Numbered from the stretch's first letter, positions 38,701-44,700 are shown. The stretch is DNA of 64,000 bases from Escherichia coli (GCF_003790525.1 NZ_CP033635.1), one strand, 5' to 3'. Numbers are program-made.

Positions 38701-41700
38701 ACTCCGCACCGCCGTGTTCTTCGGTTCAAGTCCCAACATCCGGGCGAACTGGCGCGATTTAGCCCCGACATAGCCCCACTGTTCGTCCATTTCCGCGCAG
38801 ACGATGACGTCACTGCCCGGCTGTATGCGCGAGGTTACCGACTGCGGCCTGAGTTTTTTAAGTGACGTAAAATCGTGTTGAGGCCAACGCCCATAATGCG
38901 GGCTGTTGCCCGGCATCCAACGCCATTCATGGCCATATCAATGATTTTCTGGTGCGTACCGAGTTGAGAAGCGGTGTAAGTGAACTGCAGTTGCCATGTT
39001 TTACGGCAGTGAGAGCAGAGATAGCGCTGATGTCCGGCGGTGCTTTTGCCGTTACGCACCACCCCGTCAGTAGCTGAACAGGAGGGACAGCTGATAGAAA
39101 CAGAAGCCACTGGAGCACCTCAAAAACACCATCATACACTAAATCAGTAAGTTGGCAGCATCACCCGCTTTGAAGTGAACAATAACCAGGGTCGTTTCGT
39201 ATTTCCGGATACCTGGTTTGGCCCATTACTGGGGGAGTTTGAAGAAGTGCTTGATGCATACGACACTGATGAAATCAGTGAGACGGGTTATATCAACAAA
39301 CTCAGACGCCTTGCTCAACAGGAGCCTGACTTTATTGATATACACGCTCATCTGGCATATGCATTTCTGGAGCAGAATGCCCCGCGTAAGGCACTGAACG
39401 CCGCTCTTAAAGGACTGGCGGCAGGTAATCGTCTCATCCCGGAAAGTTTCAGTGGTGAAATCATCTGGATGCATCCCGAAAACCGCCCTTATCTGCGCGC
39501 GCTTTATGCAACAATTCTCGCAAATGTGCACTTACAGCGTCATCAGGATGCGGTTATGCTCACTGATAAAATACTGGCATACAATCCTGAAGATAATCAG
39601 GGTGCCCGCTGGTTGTTGGGCTCAGAACTGTTACGAACAGGCGATCATAAGCAAGCCTTCAGTGTACTGAAAGAGCATGCTGATGAATTTTCACCTTACT
39701 GGTATGAACTTGGTCTTCTGCATTTTCTGAATGGGGAACATGTTAAGGCTGCCACAGCTTTTCGTCATGGCTTTGCTACAAACACTTACATCGCGGAAAT
39801 GCTGTGCGGAAATTTGCATCCATTTCCACTTGCTGTGCGGCATAACTTCTCCGGCTCTCTGGATACGGCAGAAGATTACTATGCAACATACTCACCATTA
39901 TGGGGACAATATCCGGAAGCATTGCTGTTTGTAAACTGGCTCTATAACCATTCCTCTGTGCTGCATGAACGAGCAGAAATCATTAAATGCGCCGAAATGC
40001 TGATGCAGGAAGATGATTTCGAAATATGCGAAAGCATTTTAAGACAGCAGAAGCTGTTGCGGGAAAGAATTGATGAGACACTTTCTGAGGAAATTGTACA
40101 GAAATGCAGAAATATTAACGGTGAATATGTCTGGCCCTGGATATTGCCGTTTTCAGCAGCAGGAATGAAACACTCAAGCATCCAGCATCAGTAGATATTG
40201 CATTAGTGTATCTTTCAAACAAGTAATAATTTATCCACCAGTAATAACACAGTCCCCCTTCCCCAGGTTATCGCCCTGGGGGCATTTTCTGAAAGTTTCC
40301 TTTAAAAAAGAATAGAGTCGTAAATTACTTTAACGAATTATTCCTGGAGTTCATTAAAGTTCTTTCGTAATACTTTGTAATCAAACACGTTATGACTGGC
40401 ATCAAAAACCACGGATTTCCCCTGCCAGCGGGTAATCACCTCCTCCGGCGTTTTCGGTTGAGCCGGTCTGGTTACGCCCATCCATGCATTAATCAGATAA
40501 TCATTATACGCAGTGGAAAAAACGCTGTTCACCGTCTGGCGATCGACATGCTCTCCCAGTGCCGGGCTGTACCAGATAAACATCGGAACATGATAAGCCT
40601 GCTGACTGGGTTTTATTCCACCATGAAAATAGGCATGTTCTTTTGTCGGGTCATACTCCAGACCGTGATCTGAAAAATACATGACGGATGCCTGACGCGT
40701 TTCCAGCATGGTGAAAACCTGTCCCAACAAACTGTCGGTATAATGAATGGAATTATCGTAACAGACTTCTTCTGTATCCAGCGGTTTAAACACGGCTTTA
40801 TCTCTGGGCCAGTTACTGCAAACCGGTTCATGGCTGCCCGTCAGATGCAGAACAATCAGTTTCCTGCTCCCCGGATTACTGTTCAGTGCTTCAGCCAGGT
40901 GTGGGAGCAGTAACTCATCATAGCCTCTGACATAAATTCTGTTTCTGGCCCGCATGGCGATACTGGCCACAGCCGTTCCGTTCTGTCGGAAAGCGGACTG
41001 CGCACTGAGCCACCAGGTATCGAACCCCGCCTGATTCGCCATGTTGATAATGTTATCAGGGTAATTACGGATATCATGATGCAGTACACTATCGGCAGAT
41101 AACGCCAGTGGAACAGCCAGCGCGGTGTAAGGTGCGCCACTGATTGCCTGAGTGAACAGTTTCAGTCGTGATTTCTGTTTCTGAAGCTCTGGTGTGGTAG
41201 GGCGCGAATACCCGTAAATGGACATGTTATCAGTCCTTGCAGATTCACCAATCACCAGAACAAATACGTCAGTGTTGTTATCCGTAATCACCAGATCGTA
41301 GTGAGGTATGGTATCAGCAATCGTCATTAATCTCTGATGCTCCTTTGCGGCCAGTGCAAAATAGTTCAGATTAAAGAAAGGGGTATATGTGGCAAACCGG
41401 GAAGCGACTATGTAAGGATCAACTTCATTTATTTGATACTGTTTCTTCAACGCAAACTGGAAGGAAGAATATAACGTTACTGTAATTAACAATAAAAATG
41501 TAATTACCGTGACCTTTTCCGATGGCAATGAGGACGTTTTATTTATTGCTGAACAGAAGAACAATAAAAAGAGGATAATAAATGCGATAACATAAACAAC
41601 ATACATCCTGAACATTCTTATTACTTCATCAGGATCTGTCTGAAGGATACTGATTGCAAAACCATCATTAAATGTTGTGCCAAATGTACACCATGAATAC

Positions 41701-44700
41701 AGGCTGATACTGATATCTGCAGCAGTCAGTAATGTGAACGGGAAGGCAAGAATCAAACGCAACGTAATCGATTTCATTGCCTTAATAATAAGAAGTGCCA
41801 GGATAAAGAATAATATCCGGTAAATCAGATGCGCTCCTGAGGATACAAGGAGATTAGAAAGGGTAAAGACAACCACTGATAACACGAGGCGCTTATCATT
41901 GCTAATCCGTGACCAGTGTATGAACGGAAGATTAATTTTCATAATAATTGAGAAAAAGCGATATTTCTGTCCGGCGCTGGTCGCTGAACATGCCGCGACA
42001 GGTGAATTCATTATTCTGAATAATCATAAAGCCACCACAAATGTAGCGGCGTAAACAGGAACGTCATGATGTTTTCTTTCGTGACAGAAGAGAACCGCAC
42101 ATACCACCCGCAATCATTATCATCAGGAATAACATCCCCAGGCCAACGATTACTCTTAATGCCGGATGAACCCGATCGGCGAGAAAAAATAACTCCATCC
42201 CGAAACCAATAACAAGCCAGGCCAGCGCCATTCCGACGAGCCCTTTTAACAGCAATCTCACGCTCCTCTCCTTCTGCATTCTTAACGAAAATGCCTTACA
42301 ATAACAGCAGCCGGGGAAGGCAACGCTGGCTGCTGAACGGTATGACATTTTACTGCTTTATGTTCTCTCAGTTTCTGTACTGACGCCGCCATTAATGGTA
42401 TTACAGTTTATTCAGAATAAGGCATGCGGCCTGGTTTAATGCAATAAACTCCTGCCAGCTGTACTGAGACTGATAATTCAGTAAATACTGGTCTTCAACC
42501 CGGCAAATCTGTGGGCGTTTATCATAAATTGCACACAAATGAGAATCAGTCTGATAGTAACGGCAAATACCGTCACCACGATCCAGACATTGCGTTTCAC
42601 CCGCCCTGTTGACATGACGACAACAGGCCCCACACTGGTTACAGGGAAATGGAGGGTGTAATTTCATCGCTTATTTAACCAGTCACGAACAGAAGCCACA
42701 TTTCCTGACTCAAACGGCAACGCAATCCCTCGTCGGCGGACTTCTTCTCTCAGCAGAAGTCCGCGCTCTATCTCACTGTTTACGCTATCCAGATGAAGTG
42801 AAAAATGATTTAACTCGGCAGCATCAACAGAAAATTCCAGTGCAGTAAGTTCCACAAGATAGCGATCAAGTTCAGCATTGACTGCCTGAAAGTATTCCAG
42901 TGACCGCTGGAATTTGTCCTTAAATTTGTCCAGAAATGCCCATACCCGCTGCATAACCTCGCTATATTCGAGATAATAATTCATCACCAGCCCGAGAATA
43001 CCTGTCGTCAGCGCACCACAAAAGGCAGCAAGCTCTGAACCAAATGGGAAAATAAGGATCTGCGCCATCGCCTCATTTATCATCACCCCTCCGGCAACAG
43101 CCACACCTGCTGCTATCAGTTTAGTGACCGCTTTGGCTAACTGCCCCGGCGATAATCCCTCCGGATTAAATACCAGGACTTTAAAGGCCTGAACGAGATT
43201 GTTCCACATTTCCCTGATAAGCCGGACAATCATTCTTTCCGTTGTCAGGAATATATTTAACAGCGTTGTGGTAATACCTGACAGTATCCCTCCGATGACA
43301 CCATCTTTAAAGGCAATTAAAAAAGAACTGAATTTTTCCTGTACTCGTTCCTGGCAGGCACGTAATGCTGACGTTATTTCGGACAGGCATTTGCCGGCGC
43401 TGAATGAGTTCCGTTGCTGCCTGATAATATGCGGGATTCGTTCCCTCAGTTCGAACCAGATCTCGGCAAGAATAAGCCCCAACATCTGTCGCGTCCCCAT
43501 ACGAAAACCGGAATTAAGCGAAGCACTGGCGACAGCAGTAGCAAACTTACTACTCAGGTAATAGCTCTGATTAATCGTGGCCTCATATTTTTCCCGGGCA
43601 TATTTATCAGCCCTTTCCATACGCTCAGTATCTGCATCAGCTTTTTTTCTCAGACTTATCAGACGTTTCTTTTCCTTTTCTGTCAGCGTTGCCTGAGATT
43701 CAAGCTCTGCTATCTGCCTTAACGTATCTTCTCTGTTTTTCTGCAGCGTGCAAATAAACGCATCCATTGAGTCTGCTTTCTTTGATTTATTGAGCGACTC
43801 ATGAGTGAATGCCAGATTTGAAGCGTCATTTGCCAGTTCTGCACCATCCCGTTCAGCAAGAATTCTCCCCGGATCATCATGAATTTCTTTAGCGGAAATA
43901 ATATGATCCAGATTTTTTTTGTCGTCAGAAGCAAACACCTCGCCTGTATATGCATCAGTAAGAGTCCCTGCCTGATGCGCACGCTTTCCTTCCCGGTTCG
44001 TCGCGATATAGTTCTCATGGCTGTGGTAATGATGAGAATCATATTCGCCACGACCTTCATACCGCTGTCGCTCAGCCTCCGTGGCATAAATGCCATTACG
44101 CACATTATGGATAGTGTCAACATCACCACCCTTACGATCATTTAGCAACAGAAAATCCAGCCCGAATGATGTAACCAGGCTCTTCACCATGGTCTGATGT
44201 AACTCTTCTGTCCAGTCAAATTTTTCCACATTCATGTTATTTCACTTCTTGTAAAGCCGGGCTTTAACGCCCGGTAAATCATTAACTCTGGGATGAAAAA
44301 TCATCAAATTTCACAACCGAACTGGCCAGTACATCATCCAGCTCATCCTTATTAATAACGTTCATTCCATTATCATCCGTTTCCATTTCAATAACGTTAT
44401 CTTTTATCACTGCCTCACCATTTTCCTGTTTCCGCGGTTTAAACAGTGGCGTTGTAATAATATCCGTCATAATAGCGGCCAGTGAATATCCATGGTCAAT
44501 AAGCACAATGACTTCATCTGATACACTGATATCCTGTTGTTCTGTAATAACAGAATGCATGGATTTAAGCGGCTCAAAATAGTGTTTAATAAATACAGCA
44601 TGCATTCTGTTCAGTGCAGCGAGAATTTCATCAACGTATTGATTAACTTTTGCAAAATGCTCCCGGGCCAGATTCATTTTCTTAACTGCCCGTGCAACAT

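What the first reader, a model, noticed from the sequence alone, without database searches (positions are those of the whole stretch)
40338..41942. Island-encoded phosphoethanolamine-transferase-family enzyme in the WYL operon
This sulfatase-superfamily membrane enzyme is distinct from the housekeeping eptA/eptB/eptC/opgE loci and is co-directional with the WYL operon. It could modify lipid A, LPS core or glucans, affecting polymyxin susceptibility or phage receptor structure.
Basis: partly seen in the sequence, partly recalled or inferred. Interest (0 to 1): 0.45.

Follow-up and report, generated by a model that had tools for sequence, protein, structure and literature searches.

The report
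Island copy of YhbX phosphoethanolamine transferase
The gene is a real, intact, extra copy of E. coli's uncharacterised YhbX-type phosphoethanolamine transferase. It is carried on a tRNA-linked island as a conserved backbone gene beside a slot where anti-phage cassettes are swapped, so it is an ordinary family member of unknown target and not a true part of the WYL operon.

Summary
RefSeq calls it from 42011 (557 aa).

It has five N-terminal membrane helices, a periplasmic sulfatase-fold domain and all catalytic residues. Selection on it is purifying (pN/pS 0.11-0.16).

It is not EptA, EptB, EptC, OpgE or MCR (21-28% identity, far below every NCBIfam cut-off). Carrier strains keep yhbX as well.

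The window is the E. coli pheV island. The gene occurs in 454 of 5,426 complete E. coli genomes.

The DNA between a Tia-like outer-membrane-protein gene and this gene is exchangeable:
- the WYL cassette in 351 genomes
- leoCBA (Eleos) in 70 genomes
- BnzAB (Bunzi) in one genome

Homologues of the WYL cassette's 523-aa protein in 76 loci from other species have no such transferase within 10 kb. So "in the WYL operon" holds only as co-direction. There is no evidence for lipid A modification or polymyxin resistance.

One unexplained point remains. A second enterobacterial island family again places a YhbX-like gene beside a WYL/PDC-M40B cassette.

Interest is low to moderate.

The parts
40338..41942 (-). 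Coding sequence of the YhbX-type phosphoethanolamine transferase, 534 aa from the most likely start. RefSeq extends it to 42011 (557 aa).
   Evidence: ORF. Pfam Sulfatase 6.2e-50. 65% identity to K-12 YhbX. Invariant E233, T273, H371, D425, H426 (534-aa numbering). Five hydrophobic segments in the first ~190 residues of the 557-aa ORF. AlphaFold2 pLDDT 90.3, matching EcEptC, NmEptA and MCR-1. pN/pS 0.11-0.16. Start codon.
42064..42261 (-). Small 65-aa ORF with two hydrophobic segments (GTG start), just upstream. It shares the backbone with the transferase in the WYL and Eleos contexts and is absent in the Bunzi context.
   Evidence: Homology with the leoCBA locus L003 starts exactly at 42261. 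The frame is kept despite 30 nt differences, with pN/pS 0.34-0.39. Absent from L011. Annotated as hypothetical WP_001238004.1. No family hit.
42401..42667 (-). 88-aa YkgJ/YcgN-type cysteine-cluster protein, the last gene of the exchangeable WYL cassette. It overlaps the stop of the 523-aa gene by 4 nt.
   Evidence: NCBIfam YcgN family 2e-4. Present in the great majority of the 77 species-level loci. Annotated as 'YkgJ family cysteine cluster protein' in some RefSeq genomes but not in the record.
42664..44235 (-). 523-aa protein of the cassette, similar to PADLOC candidate PDC-M40B. RefSeq names it 'ATP--cob(I)alamin adenosyltransferase', which is probably wrong.
   Evidence: PADLOC PDLC04630 1.3e-42. 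No significant Pfam hit. Homologues in many phyla. Invariant D110, H111, H119, N140, N149.
44282..45361 (-). 359-aa protein of the cassette, similar to PADLOC candidate PDC-M09A.
   Evidence: PADLOC PDLC04407 3.5e-22. No significant Pfam hit. Co-occurs with the 523-aa homologue in nearly all 77 loci.
45410..46306 (-). 298-aa regulator with HTH and WYL domains, the first gene of the cassette.
   Evidence: PADLOC WYL models 2.6e-22 and 3.6e-20. Present in only about 20 of the 77 cassette loci.
46726..47472 (-). Tia/Hra-family 248-aa outer-membrane protein, forming the conserved frame on the far side of the exchangeable slot.
   Evidence: 69% aa identity to the annotated Tia of L003 and 64% to the OMP of L011. 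DNA homology 47875..46726 with L003. NCBIfam Adr/OmpW-like hits.
39175..40194 (+). Convergent tetratricopeptide-repeat protein gene. It is part of the backbone in the pheV and selC versions and is replaced by an MFS transporter gene in others.
   Evidence: Homology block 42261..39166 at 95% with L003. In L002 and L004 homology ends at 40336. Annotation.
28718..30154 (+). tRNA-Phe (pheV, 28718..28793) and the island integrase (28970..30154 by the RefSeq record; longest ORF 28940..30154). Together they mark the island's attachment end.
   Evidence: ARAGORN. RefSeq context yqgA-tRNA-Phe-integrase.

Best explanation
The gene encodes an intact inner-membrane phosphoethanolamine (PEtN) transferase that is a horizontally carried paralogue of E. 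coli YhbX.

Inferred mechanism, by homology with EptA, MCR-1 and EptC. Five N-terminal membrane helices hold a periplasmic alkaline-phosphatase-fold domain. A zinc site (E233, D425, H426) activates T273 (534-aa numbering). T273 takes PEtN from phosphatidylethanolamine as a covalent intermediate and passes it to an envelope acceptor. That acceptor is not known for any member of the YhbX clade.

Shown by comparative genomics. The gene is a stand-alone, selectively maintained backbone gene of a small module found in tRNA-linked islands (pheV, pheU, selC). The module is framed by a Tia-like outer-membrane-protein gene on one side and this gene on the other. The slot between them holds alternative anti-phage cassettes: the WYL/359/523/YkgJ cassette here, Eleos (leoCBA) or Bunzi (bnzAB) elsewhere.

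It may be read through from the WYL cassette in this arrangement, but it is not a component of that system.
For: Family and intactness:
- Pfam Sulfatase 6.2e-50.
- PDB sequence hits EcEptC 1.7e-24 and NmEptA 1.3e-23.
- Invariant E, T, H and D-H columns across 46 homologues.
- Five hydrophobic segments.
- AlphaFold2 pLDDT 90.3 and pTM 0.89. Foldseek TM 0.76 to the EcEptC domain, 0.64 to full-length NmEptA and 0.62 to MCR-1.
- pN/pS 0.11-0.16 between island alleles.

YhbX paralogy:
- 65% identity over 516 aa, against 24-28% to EptA, EptB, EptC and OpgE.
- Among 1.84 billion representative proteins, the best hit is the YhbX cluster at 65% and the next is 43%.
- NJ tree: island alleles plus YhbX have 100% bootstrap support, with the other four paralogues outside.
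- yhbX is present in 5159 of 5426 genomes and the island gene in 454. Both are in strain H9Ecoli.

Backbone, not operon member:
- Homology with the selC island L003 covers 47875..46726 and 42261..39166, but not the 4.5 kb between, which is leoCBA there.
- The Bunzi context keeps only 41956..40336 plus the OMP gene.
- Adjacency counts are 351 genomes for the WYL cassette, 70 for leoCBA and 1 for BnzAB.
- Of 77 species-level loci with the 523-aa homologue, most keep the triad, and only the E. coli-like MAG has a PEtN transferase within 10 kb.
- Distant YhbX-clade genes are solitary among housekeeping genes.
- In the second island family the PEtN gene is 87-90% conserved, while the adjacent WYL is 66-95% and the 526-aa protein 60-85%.
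Against: - The gene is co-directional with the cassette across short gaps: 139 bp from the YkgJ gene to the small ORF, then 52-121 bp to the transferase start.
- The consensus scan found no sigma-70-like promoter of its own, and only a weak hairpin (8 pairs, G-U included) lies upstream. Co-transcription in this arrangement is therefore possible.
- A second enterobacterial island family (L017, L100-L103) again places a YhbX-clade transferase (38% identity) directly beside a WYL regulator (32%) and a PDC-M40B protein (28%). There it is upstream with a 72-bp gap. This repeated adjacency is not explained by backbone hitch-hiking alone.
- No enzymatic activity or acceptor has been shown for any YhbX-clade protein (PMC4013655).
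Confidence: 0.7

Rival explanations
1. The transferase is a working member of the WYL-regulated operon. It is co-expressed with the cassette and needed for, or protective against, that system's action, for example by altering the envelope when the system fires.
For: - Same strand, short gaps, no predicted own promoter and only a weak upstream hairpin.
- 351 of 454 carriers have the WYL cassette immediately upstream.
- A second island family has PEtN-WYL-281-PDC-M40B-153 in one direction with a 72-bp gap.
Against: - 76 of 77 species-level loci holding the 523-aa homologue lack any PEtN transferase within 10 kb, including about 19 loci with a WYL gene.
- The gene persists at 88-96% aa identity beside leoCBA or BnzAB without the cassette.
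- A Pseudomonas PDC-M40B locus has neither WYL nor a PEtN transferase.
- In family 2 the PEtN gene does not co-diverge with the cassette.
- PADLOC has no model matching the transferase.
Confidence: 0.12
2. The transferase is itself a phage-resistance or surface-variation determinant. It would add PEtN to a phage receptor (LPS core, O-antigen or an outer-membrane protein such as the neighbouring Tia-like protein), which would explain why it resides in defence islands next to varied defence systems.
For: - In two island families it sits beside or between defence systems: Eleos, Bunzi and the WYL cassette, and DndFGH or MAD7-like plus PDC-M40B.
- It is always framed with a Tia-family OMP gene in the E. 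coli module.
- It is under purifying selection.
- Established knowledge: PEtN transferases are known to change O-antigen and protein surfaces, for example Shigella flexneri Opt and Campylobacter EptC.
Against: - No experimental link exists.
- There are no close phage- or plasmid-borne relatives, as would be expected for serotype-converting genes.
- There are no PADLOC or PHROGs hits.
- Distant clade members sit in housekeeping contexts.
- The near-core YhbX is not known to affect phage sensitivity.
Confidence: 0.2
3. It is a lipid A PEtN transferase that raises polymyxin resistance, a chromosomal MCR/EptA analogue.
For: It has the same fold and catalytic residues as EptA and MCR-1. The NCBIfam domain model 'phosphoethanolamine--lipid A transferase' is the best hit.
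Against: - That hit scores 163.5 bits against a cut-off of 500.
- EptA equivalogs score 98-137 bits against cut-offs of 561-660, and MCR families 38-67 bits against at least 1075.
- The tree places it with YhbX, away from EptA and EptB.
- Own knowledge, not tested here: K-12, which carries YhbX, relies on EptA for PEtN on lipid A.
- A yjgX deletion was a false positive in a cationic-peptide screen, but yjgX is a different, 31%-identical island type (PMC4808223).
Confidence: 0.05
4. It is a decaying island remnant without function.
For: It is surrounded by IS1 and integrase fragments. Truncated or IS-interrupted copies exist in some genomes.
Against: - It is full-length in 454 genomes.
- pN/pS is 0.11-0.16 over 517 codons.
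- All catalytic residues are intact.
- The structure model is confident.
Confidence: 0.03

Closest known systems
E. coli YhbX (b3173), a putative PEtN transferase of unknown function between argG and tRNA leuU
   Same: 65% identity over the whole length, the same size and the same five-helix plus sulfatase-fold architecture and catalytic residues. It is the sister group with 100% bootstrap support. It falls in the same 50%-identity cluster in the representative library.
   Different: The location differs: a pheV, pheU or selC island, not argG-leuU. It is present in 8% of genomes, against 95% for yhbX. It is an additional copy in strains that keep yhbX. No intermediate (70-85%) donor lineage was found.
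E. coli EptC/CptA, which puts PEtN on phosphorylated heptose I of the LPS core, and OpgE, which puts PEtN on osmoregulated periplasmic glucans
   Same: EcEptC is the best solved-structure match (5zzu/6a82). The CptA subfamily model is the second-best NCBIfam hit. The catalytic motifs are the same.
   Different: Only 24-28% identity. The scores of 146.5 and 131.5 bits fall below the cut-offs of 404 and 900. Both fall outside the YhbX clade in the tree.
EptA/PmrC and the MCR-1 to MCR-13 lipid A PEtN transferases
   Same: The full-length fold superposes: TM 0.64 to NmEptA 5fgn and 0.62 to MCR-1 9nww. The Thr nucleophile and zinc ligands are conserved.
   Different: About 22-27% identity. NCBIfam scores are 38-137 bits against cut-offs of 561-1250. 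The gene is chromosomal only, with no close plasmid relatives.
YjgX, the pseudogene in the K-12 leuX island and the other PEtN-transferase type reported in E. coli tRNA islands (PMC6174562)
   Same: It is also an island-borne PEtN-transferase-family gene next to a tRNA integrase. A frameshifted copy of that type lies 5 kb from the YhbX-type gene in L004.
   Different: Only about 31% identity to the window protein, so it is a separate lineage.
The Tia island of enterotoxigenic E. coli at selC (tia, leoCBA). leoCBA matches the PADLOC LeoA/B/C models of the Eleos anti-phage system.
   Same: It has the same frame: integrase remnant, Tia-family OMP gene, cassette, small ORF, this transferase (95% DNA identity) and the TPR gene. 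A published genome description notes a PEtN transferase in the tia island at tRNA-Sec (PMC8454413).
   Different: The 4.5-kb slot holds leoCBA there and the WYL/359/523/YkgJ cassette here. The OMP genes are only 81% identical at DNA level and 69% at protein level.

Membership tests
Phosphoethanolamine transferases of the EptA/EptC/MCR superfamily | N-terminal domain of five transmembrane helices | tested here: met
   There are five hydrophobic segments within residues 41-188 of the 557-aa ORF. The AlphaFold2 model has long helices over residues 15-166. It aligns over the full length with NmEptA 5fgn and MCR-1 9nww. The Pfam EptA_B_N hit itself is only marginal (0.069).
Phosphoethanolamine transferases of the EptA/EptC/MCR superfamily | Periplasmic alkaline-phosphatase/sulfatase-fold catalytic domain | tested here: met
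   Pfam PF00884 scores 6.2e-50 over residues 250-497. Foldseek TM is 0.76 to EcEptC 6a82 and 0.70-0.76 to the MCR-1 domains.
Phosphoethanolamine transferases of the EptA/EptC/MCR superfamily | Thr nucleophile and zinc ligands (Glu, Asp-His) plus the second-shell His | tested here: met
   E233, T273, H371, D425 and H426 (534-aa numbering; E256, T296, H394, D448, H449 in the 557-aa ORF) are invariant in A1 (6 sequences) and A3 (46 sequences).
Phosphoethanolamine transferases of the EptA/EptC/MCR superfamily | Demonstrated transfer of PEtN from phosphatidylethanolamine to an acceptor | not testable with these tools
   This needs biochemistry or mass spectrometry. No YhbX-clade member has been characterised (PMC4013655).
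YhbX subfamily | Full-length similarity and monophyly with E. coli YhbX | tested here: met
   65.3% identity over 516 aa. Bootstrap support is 100%. It falls in the same 50%-identity cluster.
YhbX subfamily | Orthologous position (argG-yhbX-leuU) | tested here: not met
   The gene lies in the pheV island. The same strain has yhbX at argG-leuU. It is therefore a paralogue or xenologue, not an allele.
EptA, EptB, EptC/CptA and MCR equivalogs (NCBIfam) | Score at or above the curated whole-protein cut-off | tested here: not met
   EptA scores 137.4 and 98.2 bits against cut-offs of 561 and 660. EptB scores 112.3 against 493. CptA scores 146.5 and 131.5 against 404 and 900. MCR families score 38.5-67.3 against 1075-1250.
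OpgE (glucan PEtN transferase) | Close similarity or monophyly with E. coli OpgE | tested here: not met
   27.6% identity over 312 aa. It falls outside the YhbX clade, which has 92% support.
WYL/359/523/YkgJ cassette (PADLOC candidates PDC-M09A-like and PDC-M40B-like) | Conserved co-occurrence of the transferase with the cassette genes across species | tested here: not met
   Only 1 of 77 species-level loci, the E. coli-like MAG L018, has any PEtN transferase within 10 kb. The cassette is replaced by leoCBA or BnzAB next to the same gene.
WYL/359/523/YkgJ cassette (PADLOC candidates PDC-M09A-like and PDC-M40B-like) | Co-transcription with the cassette in this strain | tested here: inconclusive
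   The genes share a strand with gaps of 139 bp and 52-121 bp. Only a weak hairpin at 42050..42031 lies between them, and no consensus promoter was found. RNA data are needed.
Known or candidate anti-phage defence proteins (PADLOC-DB 2.0) | Match to a defence-system model | tested here: not met
   There are no PADLOC hits for the transferase or the small ORF.

The most novel reading that the evidence does not exclude
YhbX-clade PEtN transferases carried on enterobacterial islands are conserved 'resident' genes of defence hotspots because they act in phage resistance themselves. They would decorate a surface receptor (LPS core, O-antigen or the neighbouring Tia-family outer-membrane protein) with PEtN. 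This would be a first-line adsorption block travelling with interchangeable intracellular defence cassettes, and it would give the orphan YhbX family its first function.
Probability: 0.18. Interest if true: 0.6.

Novelty: new member of a known kind. Interest (0 to 1): 0.3.

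Why it matters
On its own the gene adds little. It is an annotated, uncharacterised paralogue of an uncharacterised E. coli enzyme, with no sign of being a polymyxin-resistance determinant.

It matters in two modest ways.
- About 8% of E. coli genomes carry a sixth PEtN-transferase-family gene under purifying selection. Any study that assigns a substrate to YhbX should therefore include this island copy.
- Its fixed position makes it a handy landmark. The interval between the Tia-like OMP gene and this gene is a slot that holds Eleos, Bunzi or the WYL/359/523/YkgJ cassette. That is good circumstantial evidence that the last of these is an untested anti-phage system found across several bacterial groups.

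Tried and rejected
- Plasmid and phage collections, searched by tblastn. No close relatives turned up. The exceptions were one 62-kb E. coli record at 94% identity and chromosome-sized records filed as plasmids. The best phage hits were about 30% identical. I dropped the mobile mcr-like or serotype-converting-phage origin.
- PADLOC and PHROGs for the transferase and the small ORF: no hits.
- Identity with K-12 yjgX, the island PEtN pseudogene: only about 31%, so a different lineage.
- Pfam on the 523-aa and 359-aa proteins: nothing significant.
- Literature on YhbX and YjgX. YhbX appears only as a chromosomal landmark or with 'no function established'. No paper mentions PDC-M40 or PDC-M09.
- MCR-1 reference plasmid KP347127: not in the collection. 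MCR is therefore represented only by NCBIfam scores and PDB matches.
- The first tree attempt timed out. The second had invalid distances that capped support values. The corrected version is.
- A homologue of the small ORF upstream of yhbX in K-12: none found.
- I first read the transferase as a mere flank of the slot. The L017 family then forced me to reconsider. The reciprocal survey and the non-parallel divergence brought me back to that reading, with a residual unexplained association.

Full report
**What is there**

An ORF on the minus strand runs from 42011 to 40338 (557 aa). The finding's end coordinate, 41942, is the in-frame Met24. I think this is the real start, for three reasons:
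- K-12 YhbX aligns from about that position.
- In an allele that sits behind a different cassette (L011), DNA homology with the window begins at 41956, only 14 bp before that ATG, and the gene there was called as 530 aa.
- The 23 upstream codons show no clear constraint, while the remainder has pN/pS of 0.11-0.16.

Neither ATG has an obvious Shine-Dalgarno sequence.

**Where the window comes from**

The window is E. coli chromosome. The 9.5 kb around the gene are 100% identical to many complete genomes. In strain H9Ecoli the region lies in the island inserted at tRNA-Phe next to yqgA, which is pheV. RefSeq already names the product 'phosphoethanolamine transferase', WP_025492097.1.

**Family membership**

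- Pfam finds a Sulfatase domain (6.2e-50) and only a marginal EptA_B_N hit.
- The twenty NCBIfam hits are nineteen PEtN-transferase models and one marginal arylsulfatase hit. All fall far below their curated cut-offs:
  - general domain model: 163.5 bits against 500
  - CptA: 146.5 against 404
  - EptA: 137.4 against 561
  - EptB: 112.3 against 493
  - MCR families: 38-67 against at least 1075
- By sequence, the best solved structures are E. coli EptC and Neisseria EptA.
- The metal-binding Glu, the Thr nucleophile, the His of GSH and the Asp-His pair are invariant. This holds in an alignment with the five K-12 paralogues and in one of 46 homologues. They are E233, T273, H371, D425 and H426 counted from Met24.
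- Five hydrophobic segments fill the first ~190 residues of the 557-aa ORF.
- An AlphaFold2 model built on the 46-sequence alignment is confident (pLDDT 90.3, pTM 0.89). It superposes on the EcEptC domain (TM 0.76), full-length NmEptA (0.64) and the MCR-1 cryo-EM structure (0.62).

**Which paralogue it is**

- The protein is 65% identical to YhbX over 516 residues and 24-28% identical to the other four.
- In a library of 1.84 billion representatives, the best hit is the YhbX cluster at 65% and the next is 43%. Only 106 representatives reach 1e-30.
- In a neighbour-joining tree with 200 bootstraps, the island alleles form one clade (100%) that is sister to YhbX (100%). EptA, EptB, EptC and OpgE fall outside a 92%-supported YhbX clade.
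- yhbX is near-core (5159 of 5426 complete genomes). The island gene is in 454 genomes, always on the chromosome.
- Strain H9Ecoli has both genes.

So it is an extra, diverged paralogue, not an allele of a housekeeping gene. [quoted passage not shown] The other island-borne type mentioned in the literature, YjgX (PMC6174562), is only about 31% identical.

**Is it part of the WYL operon?**

Upstream on the same strand lie, in transcription order:
- a WYL regulator (45410..46306)
- a 359-aa protein (PADLOC candidate PDC-M09A, 3.5e-22)
- a 523-aa protein (PDC-M40B, 1.3e-42)
- an 88-aa YkgJ-type cysteine-cluster ORF that overlaps the 523-aa gene's stop by 4 nt
- a 139-bp gap
- a 65-aa two-segment membrane ORF (42064..42261)
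- the transferase

 Only a weak hairpin lies before the transferase, and no consensus promoter was found. Read-through here is therefore possible.

Comparison with other genomes shows that the transferase is not part of that unit.
- In the selC island of strain 52148, homology with the window covers 47875..46726 (integrase remnant plus a Tia-family outer-membrane-protein gene, 81%). It also covers 42261..39166 (small ORF, transferase and TPR gene, 95%).
- The 4.5 kb between those blocks is leoCBA in that strain. leoCBA matches the PADLOC Leo models of the Eleos anti-phage system.
- In a third context, the slot holds BnzA and BnzB of the Bunzi system (8e-189 and 2e-201). There homology starts only 14 bp before the transferase's ATG. 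That arrangement exists in one complete E. coli genome.
- In the pheU versions, homology ends 2 bp beyond the stop codon, and an MFS transporter gene replaces the TPR gene.
- The transferase directly follows the WYL cassette in 351 genomes, leoCBA in 70 and BnzAB in one, out of 454 carriers.

The unit common to all contexts is the transferase gene alone.

**Reciprocal test**

I anchored on the 523-aa protein and fetched 77 species-level loci with 10-kb flanks. They came from Enterobacterales, Pseudomonas, Aeromonas, Vibrio, Burkholderiales, Neisseriales, Acetobacteraceae, Lachnospiraceae, Treponema, Desulfovibrio and other groups.
- The 359-like, 523-like and YkgJ-like genes occur together in nearly all of these loci.
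- A WYL gene is present in about twenty.
- A PEtN transferase within 10 kb is present in one locus only, an E. coli-like MAG.

More distant YhbX-clade genes (30-45% identity) sit alone among housekeeping genes.

**A complication I could not remove**

One 38%-identical relative (L017) lies directly upstream of a WYL regulator (32% identity), a 281-aa protein, a better PDC-M40B match (1e-76; 28% identical to the 523-aa protein) and a 153-aa protein. DndFGH lies on its other side.

Three further loci of this family (Citrobacter youngae-like, with a P4-type integrase) keep the order PEtN-WYL-281-526-153. The system on the other side changes among them.

Within this family the transferase is 87-90% identical, while WYL ranges from 66 to 95% and the 526-aa protein from 60 to 85%, not in parallel. 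One locus has a 566-bp insert between the transferase and WYL. A Pseudomonas PDC-M40B locus has neither a WYL gene nor a transferase.

So the transferase again behaves as a conserved island gene next to fast-changing defence content. But the same two gene families being neighbours in two island families is more than I can explain by chance with the data in hand.

**Mechanism**

Shown:
- the fold, the topology and the catalytic residues
- purifying selection
- paralogy to YhbX
- the backbone position

Inferred from the characterised relatives EptA, MCR-1 and EptC:
- The periplasmic domain uses zinc and T273 to take PEtN from phosphatidylethanolamine.
- It then transfers the PEtN to an envelope acceptor.

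Unknown:
- The acceptor. Nothing points to lipid A. The protein is remote from EptA and MCR. To my knowledge, the YhbX present in K-12 does not substitute for EptA; I did not test this.
- A role in changing a phage receptor. This is compatible with the gene's residence in defence islands, but I have no direct evidence for it.

**Comparison with what is known**

Putative PEtN transferases 'YjgX or YhbX' have been noted at the pheU, pheV and selC insertion sites of STEC (PMC6174562). One has also been listed in a tia island at tRNA-Sec (PMC8454413). tRNA loci are known defence hotspots in E. coli (PMC10121019). The gene is therefore a new, uncharacterised member of a known family, sitting in a known kind of island.

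**Verdict**

- Novelty is low and interest is about 0.3.

The more interesting by-product is the exchangeable slot itself and the widely conserved 359/523/YkgJ triad that occupies it here.

Noticed in passing
window 42401-45361 (with the regulator, to 46306): The 359-aa, 523-aa and 88-aa YkgJ-like genes form a triad conserved in nearly all of 77 species-level loci, from Proteobacteria to Lachnospiraceae, Treponema and Desulfovibrio. Gene order is 359-523-YkgJ in Proteobacteria and 523-YkgJ-359 in the others. The triad matches PADLOC candidates PDC-M09A and PDC-M40B and occupies the slot that holds Eleos or Bunzi in other E. coli. It is a strong, apparently untested anti-phage candidate.
   Followed up: partly
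window 42664-44235: RefSeq names the 523-aa protein 'ATP--cob(I)alamin adenosyltransferase'. Nothing supports that name: there is no significant Pfam or NCBIfam hit. Invariant D110, H111, H119, N140 and N149, plus a weak GmrSD_C hit, suggest an HNH-like nuclease head on a hydrophobic C-terminal half.
   Followed up: partly
window 42401-42667: The 88-aa CxxCxxCC (YkgJ/YcgN-type) ORF overlaps the preceding stop codon by 4 nt. It is not annotated in the RefSeq record examined, though it is annotated in some others. It is conserved across phyla.
   Followed up: partly
window 42064-42261: A 65-aa ORF with two hydrophobic segments and a GTG start keeps its frame across 30 nt differences (pN/pS 0.34-0.39). 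It travels with the transferase in the WYL and Eleos contexts but is absent in the Bunzi context and upstream of yhbX. Its function is unknown.
   Followed up: partly
L017 6001-11547; L100, L101, L102, L103: A second enterobacterial island family, with a P4-type integrase and AlpA, has the order [DndFGH, or MAD7 plus an FtsK-like protein, or an 809-aa protein] - YhbX-like transferase - WYL - 281 aa - PDC-M40B - ~150 aa. The transferase is the most conserved gene of the block. Its conserved upstream region carries the palindrome GGTAACGGCAACCGTTACC.
   Followed up: partly
L005 3989-6159; L008 3617-5476; L007 3451-5598 (E. coli K-12): Housekeeping PEtN-transferase genes also sit at island-like spots. 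yhbX abuts tRNA leuU, eptB abuts tRNA proK, and opgE is convergent with ompX, which echoes the OMP/transferase frame of the island. YhbX is not among the S. enterica LT2 proteins in the tree of PMC4013655, so yhbX may be an old island remnant.
   Followed up: no
window 30304-39110: A sugar-utilisation block (substrate-binding-domain protein, alpha-galactosidase, MFS transporter, GH32 hydrolase, carbohydrate porin) lies between the pheV integrase and the TPR gene, followed by IS1 fragments at 38473-39110. In the selC version the TPR gene lies within about 450 bp of the integrase gene. The sugar block therefore looks like a later insertion.
   Followed up: no
window 48094-56871: A low-GC stretch (32-37% at 48000-52000) carries a hypothetical gene, an AAA ATPase gene and a type I restriction-modification system (S, M and a DEAD/DEAH helicase-type R subunit). 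Further on lie MazG-like, XRE, thymidylate-synthase and dGTPase-family genes. The whole distal island therefore looks like defence content.
   Followed up: no
L004 15698-17034: Strain 100117 carries a second, frameshifted PEtN-transferase gene of the YjgX type (about 30% identical). It lies next to another IS-interrupted OMP gene and an integrase, 5 kb from the YhbX-type gene. OMP-plus-transferase pairs thus recur in these islands.
   Followed up: no
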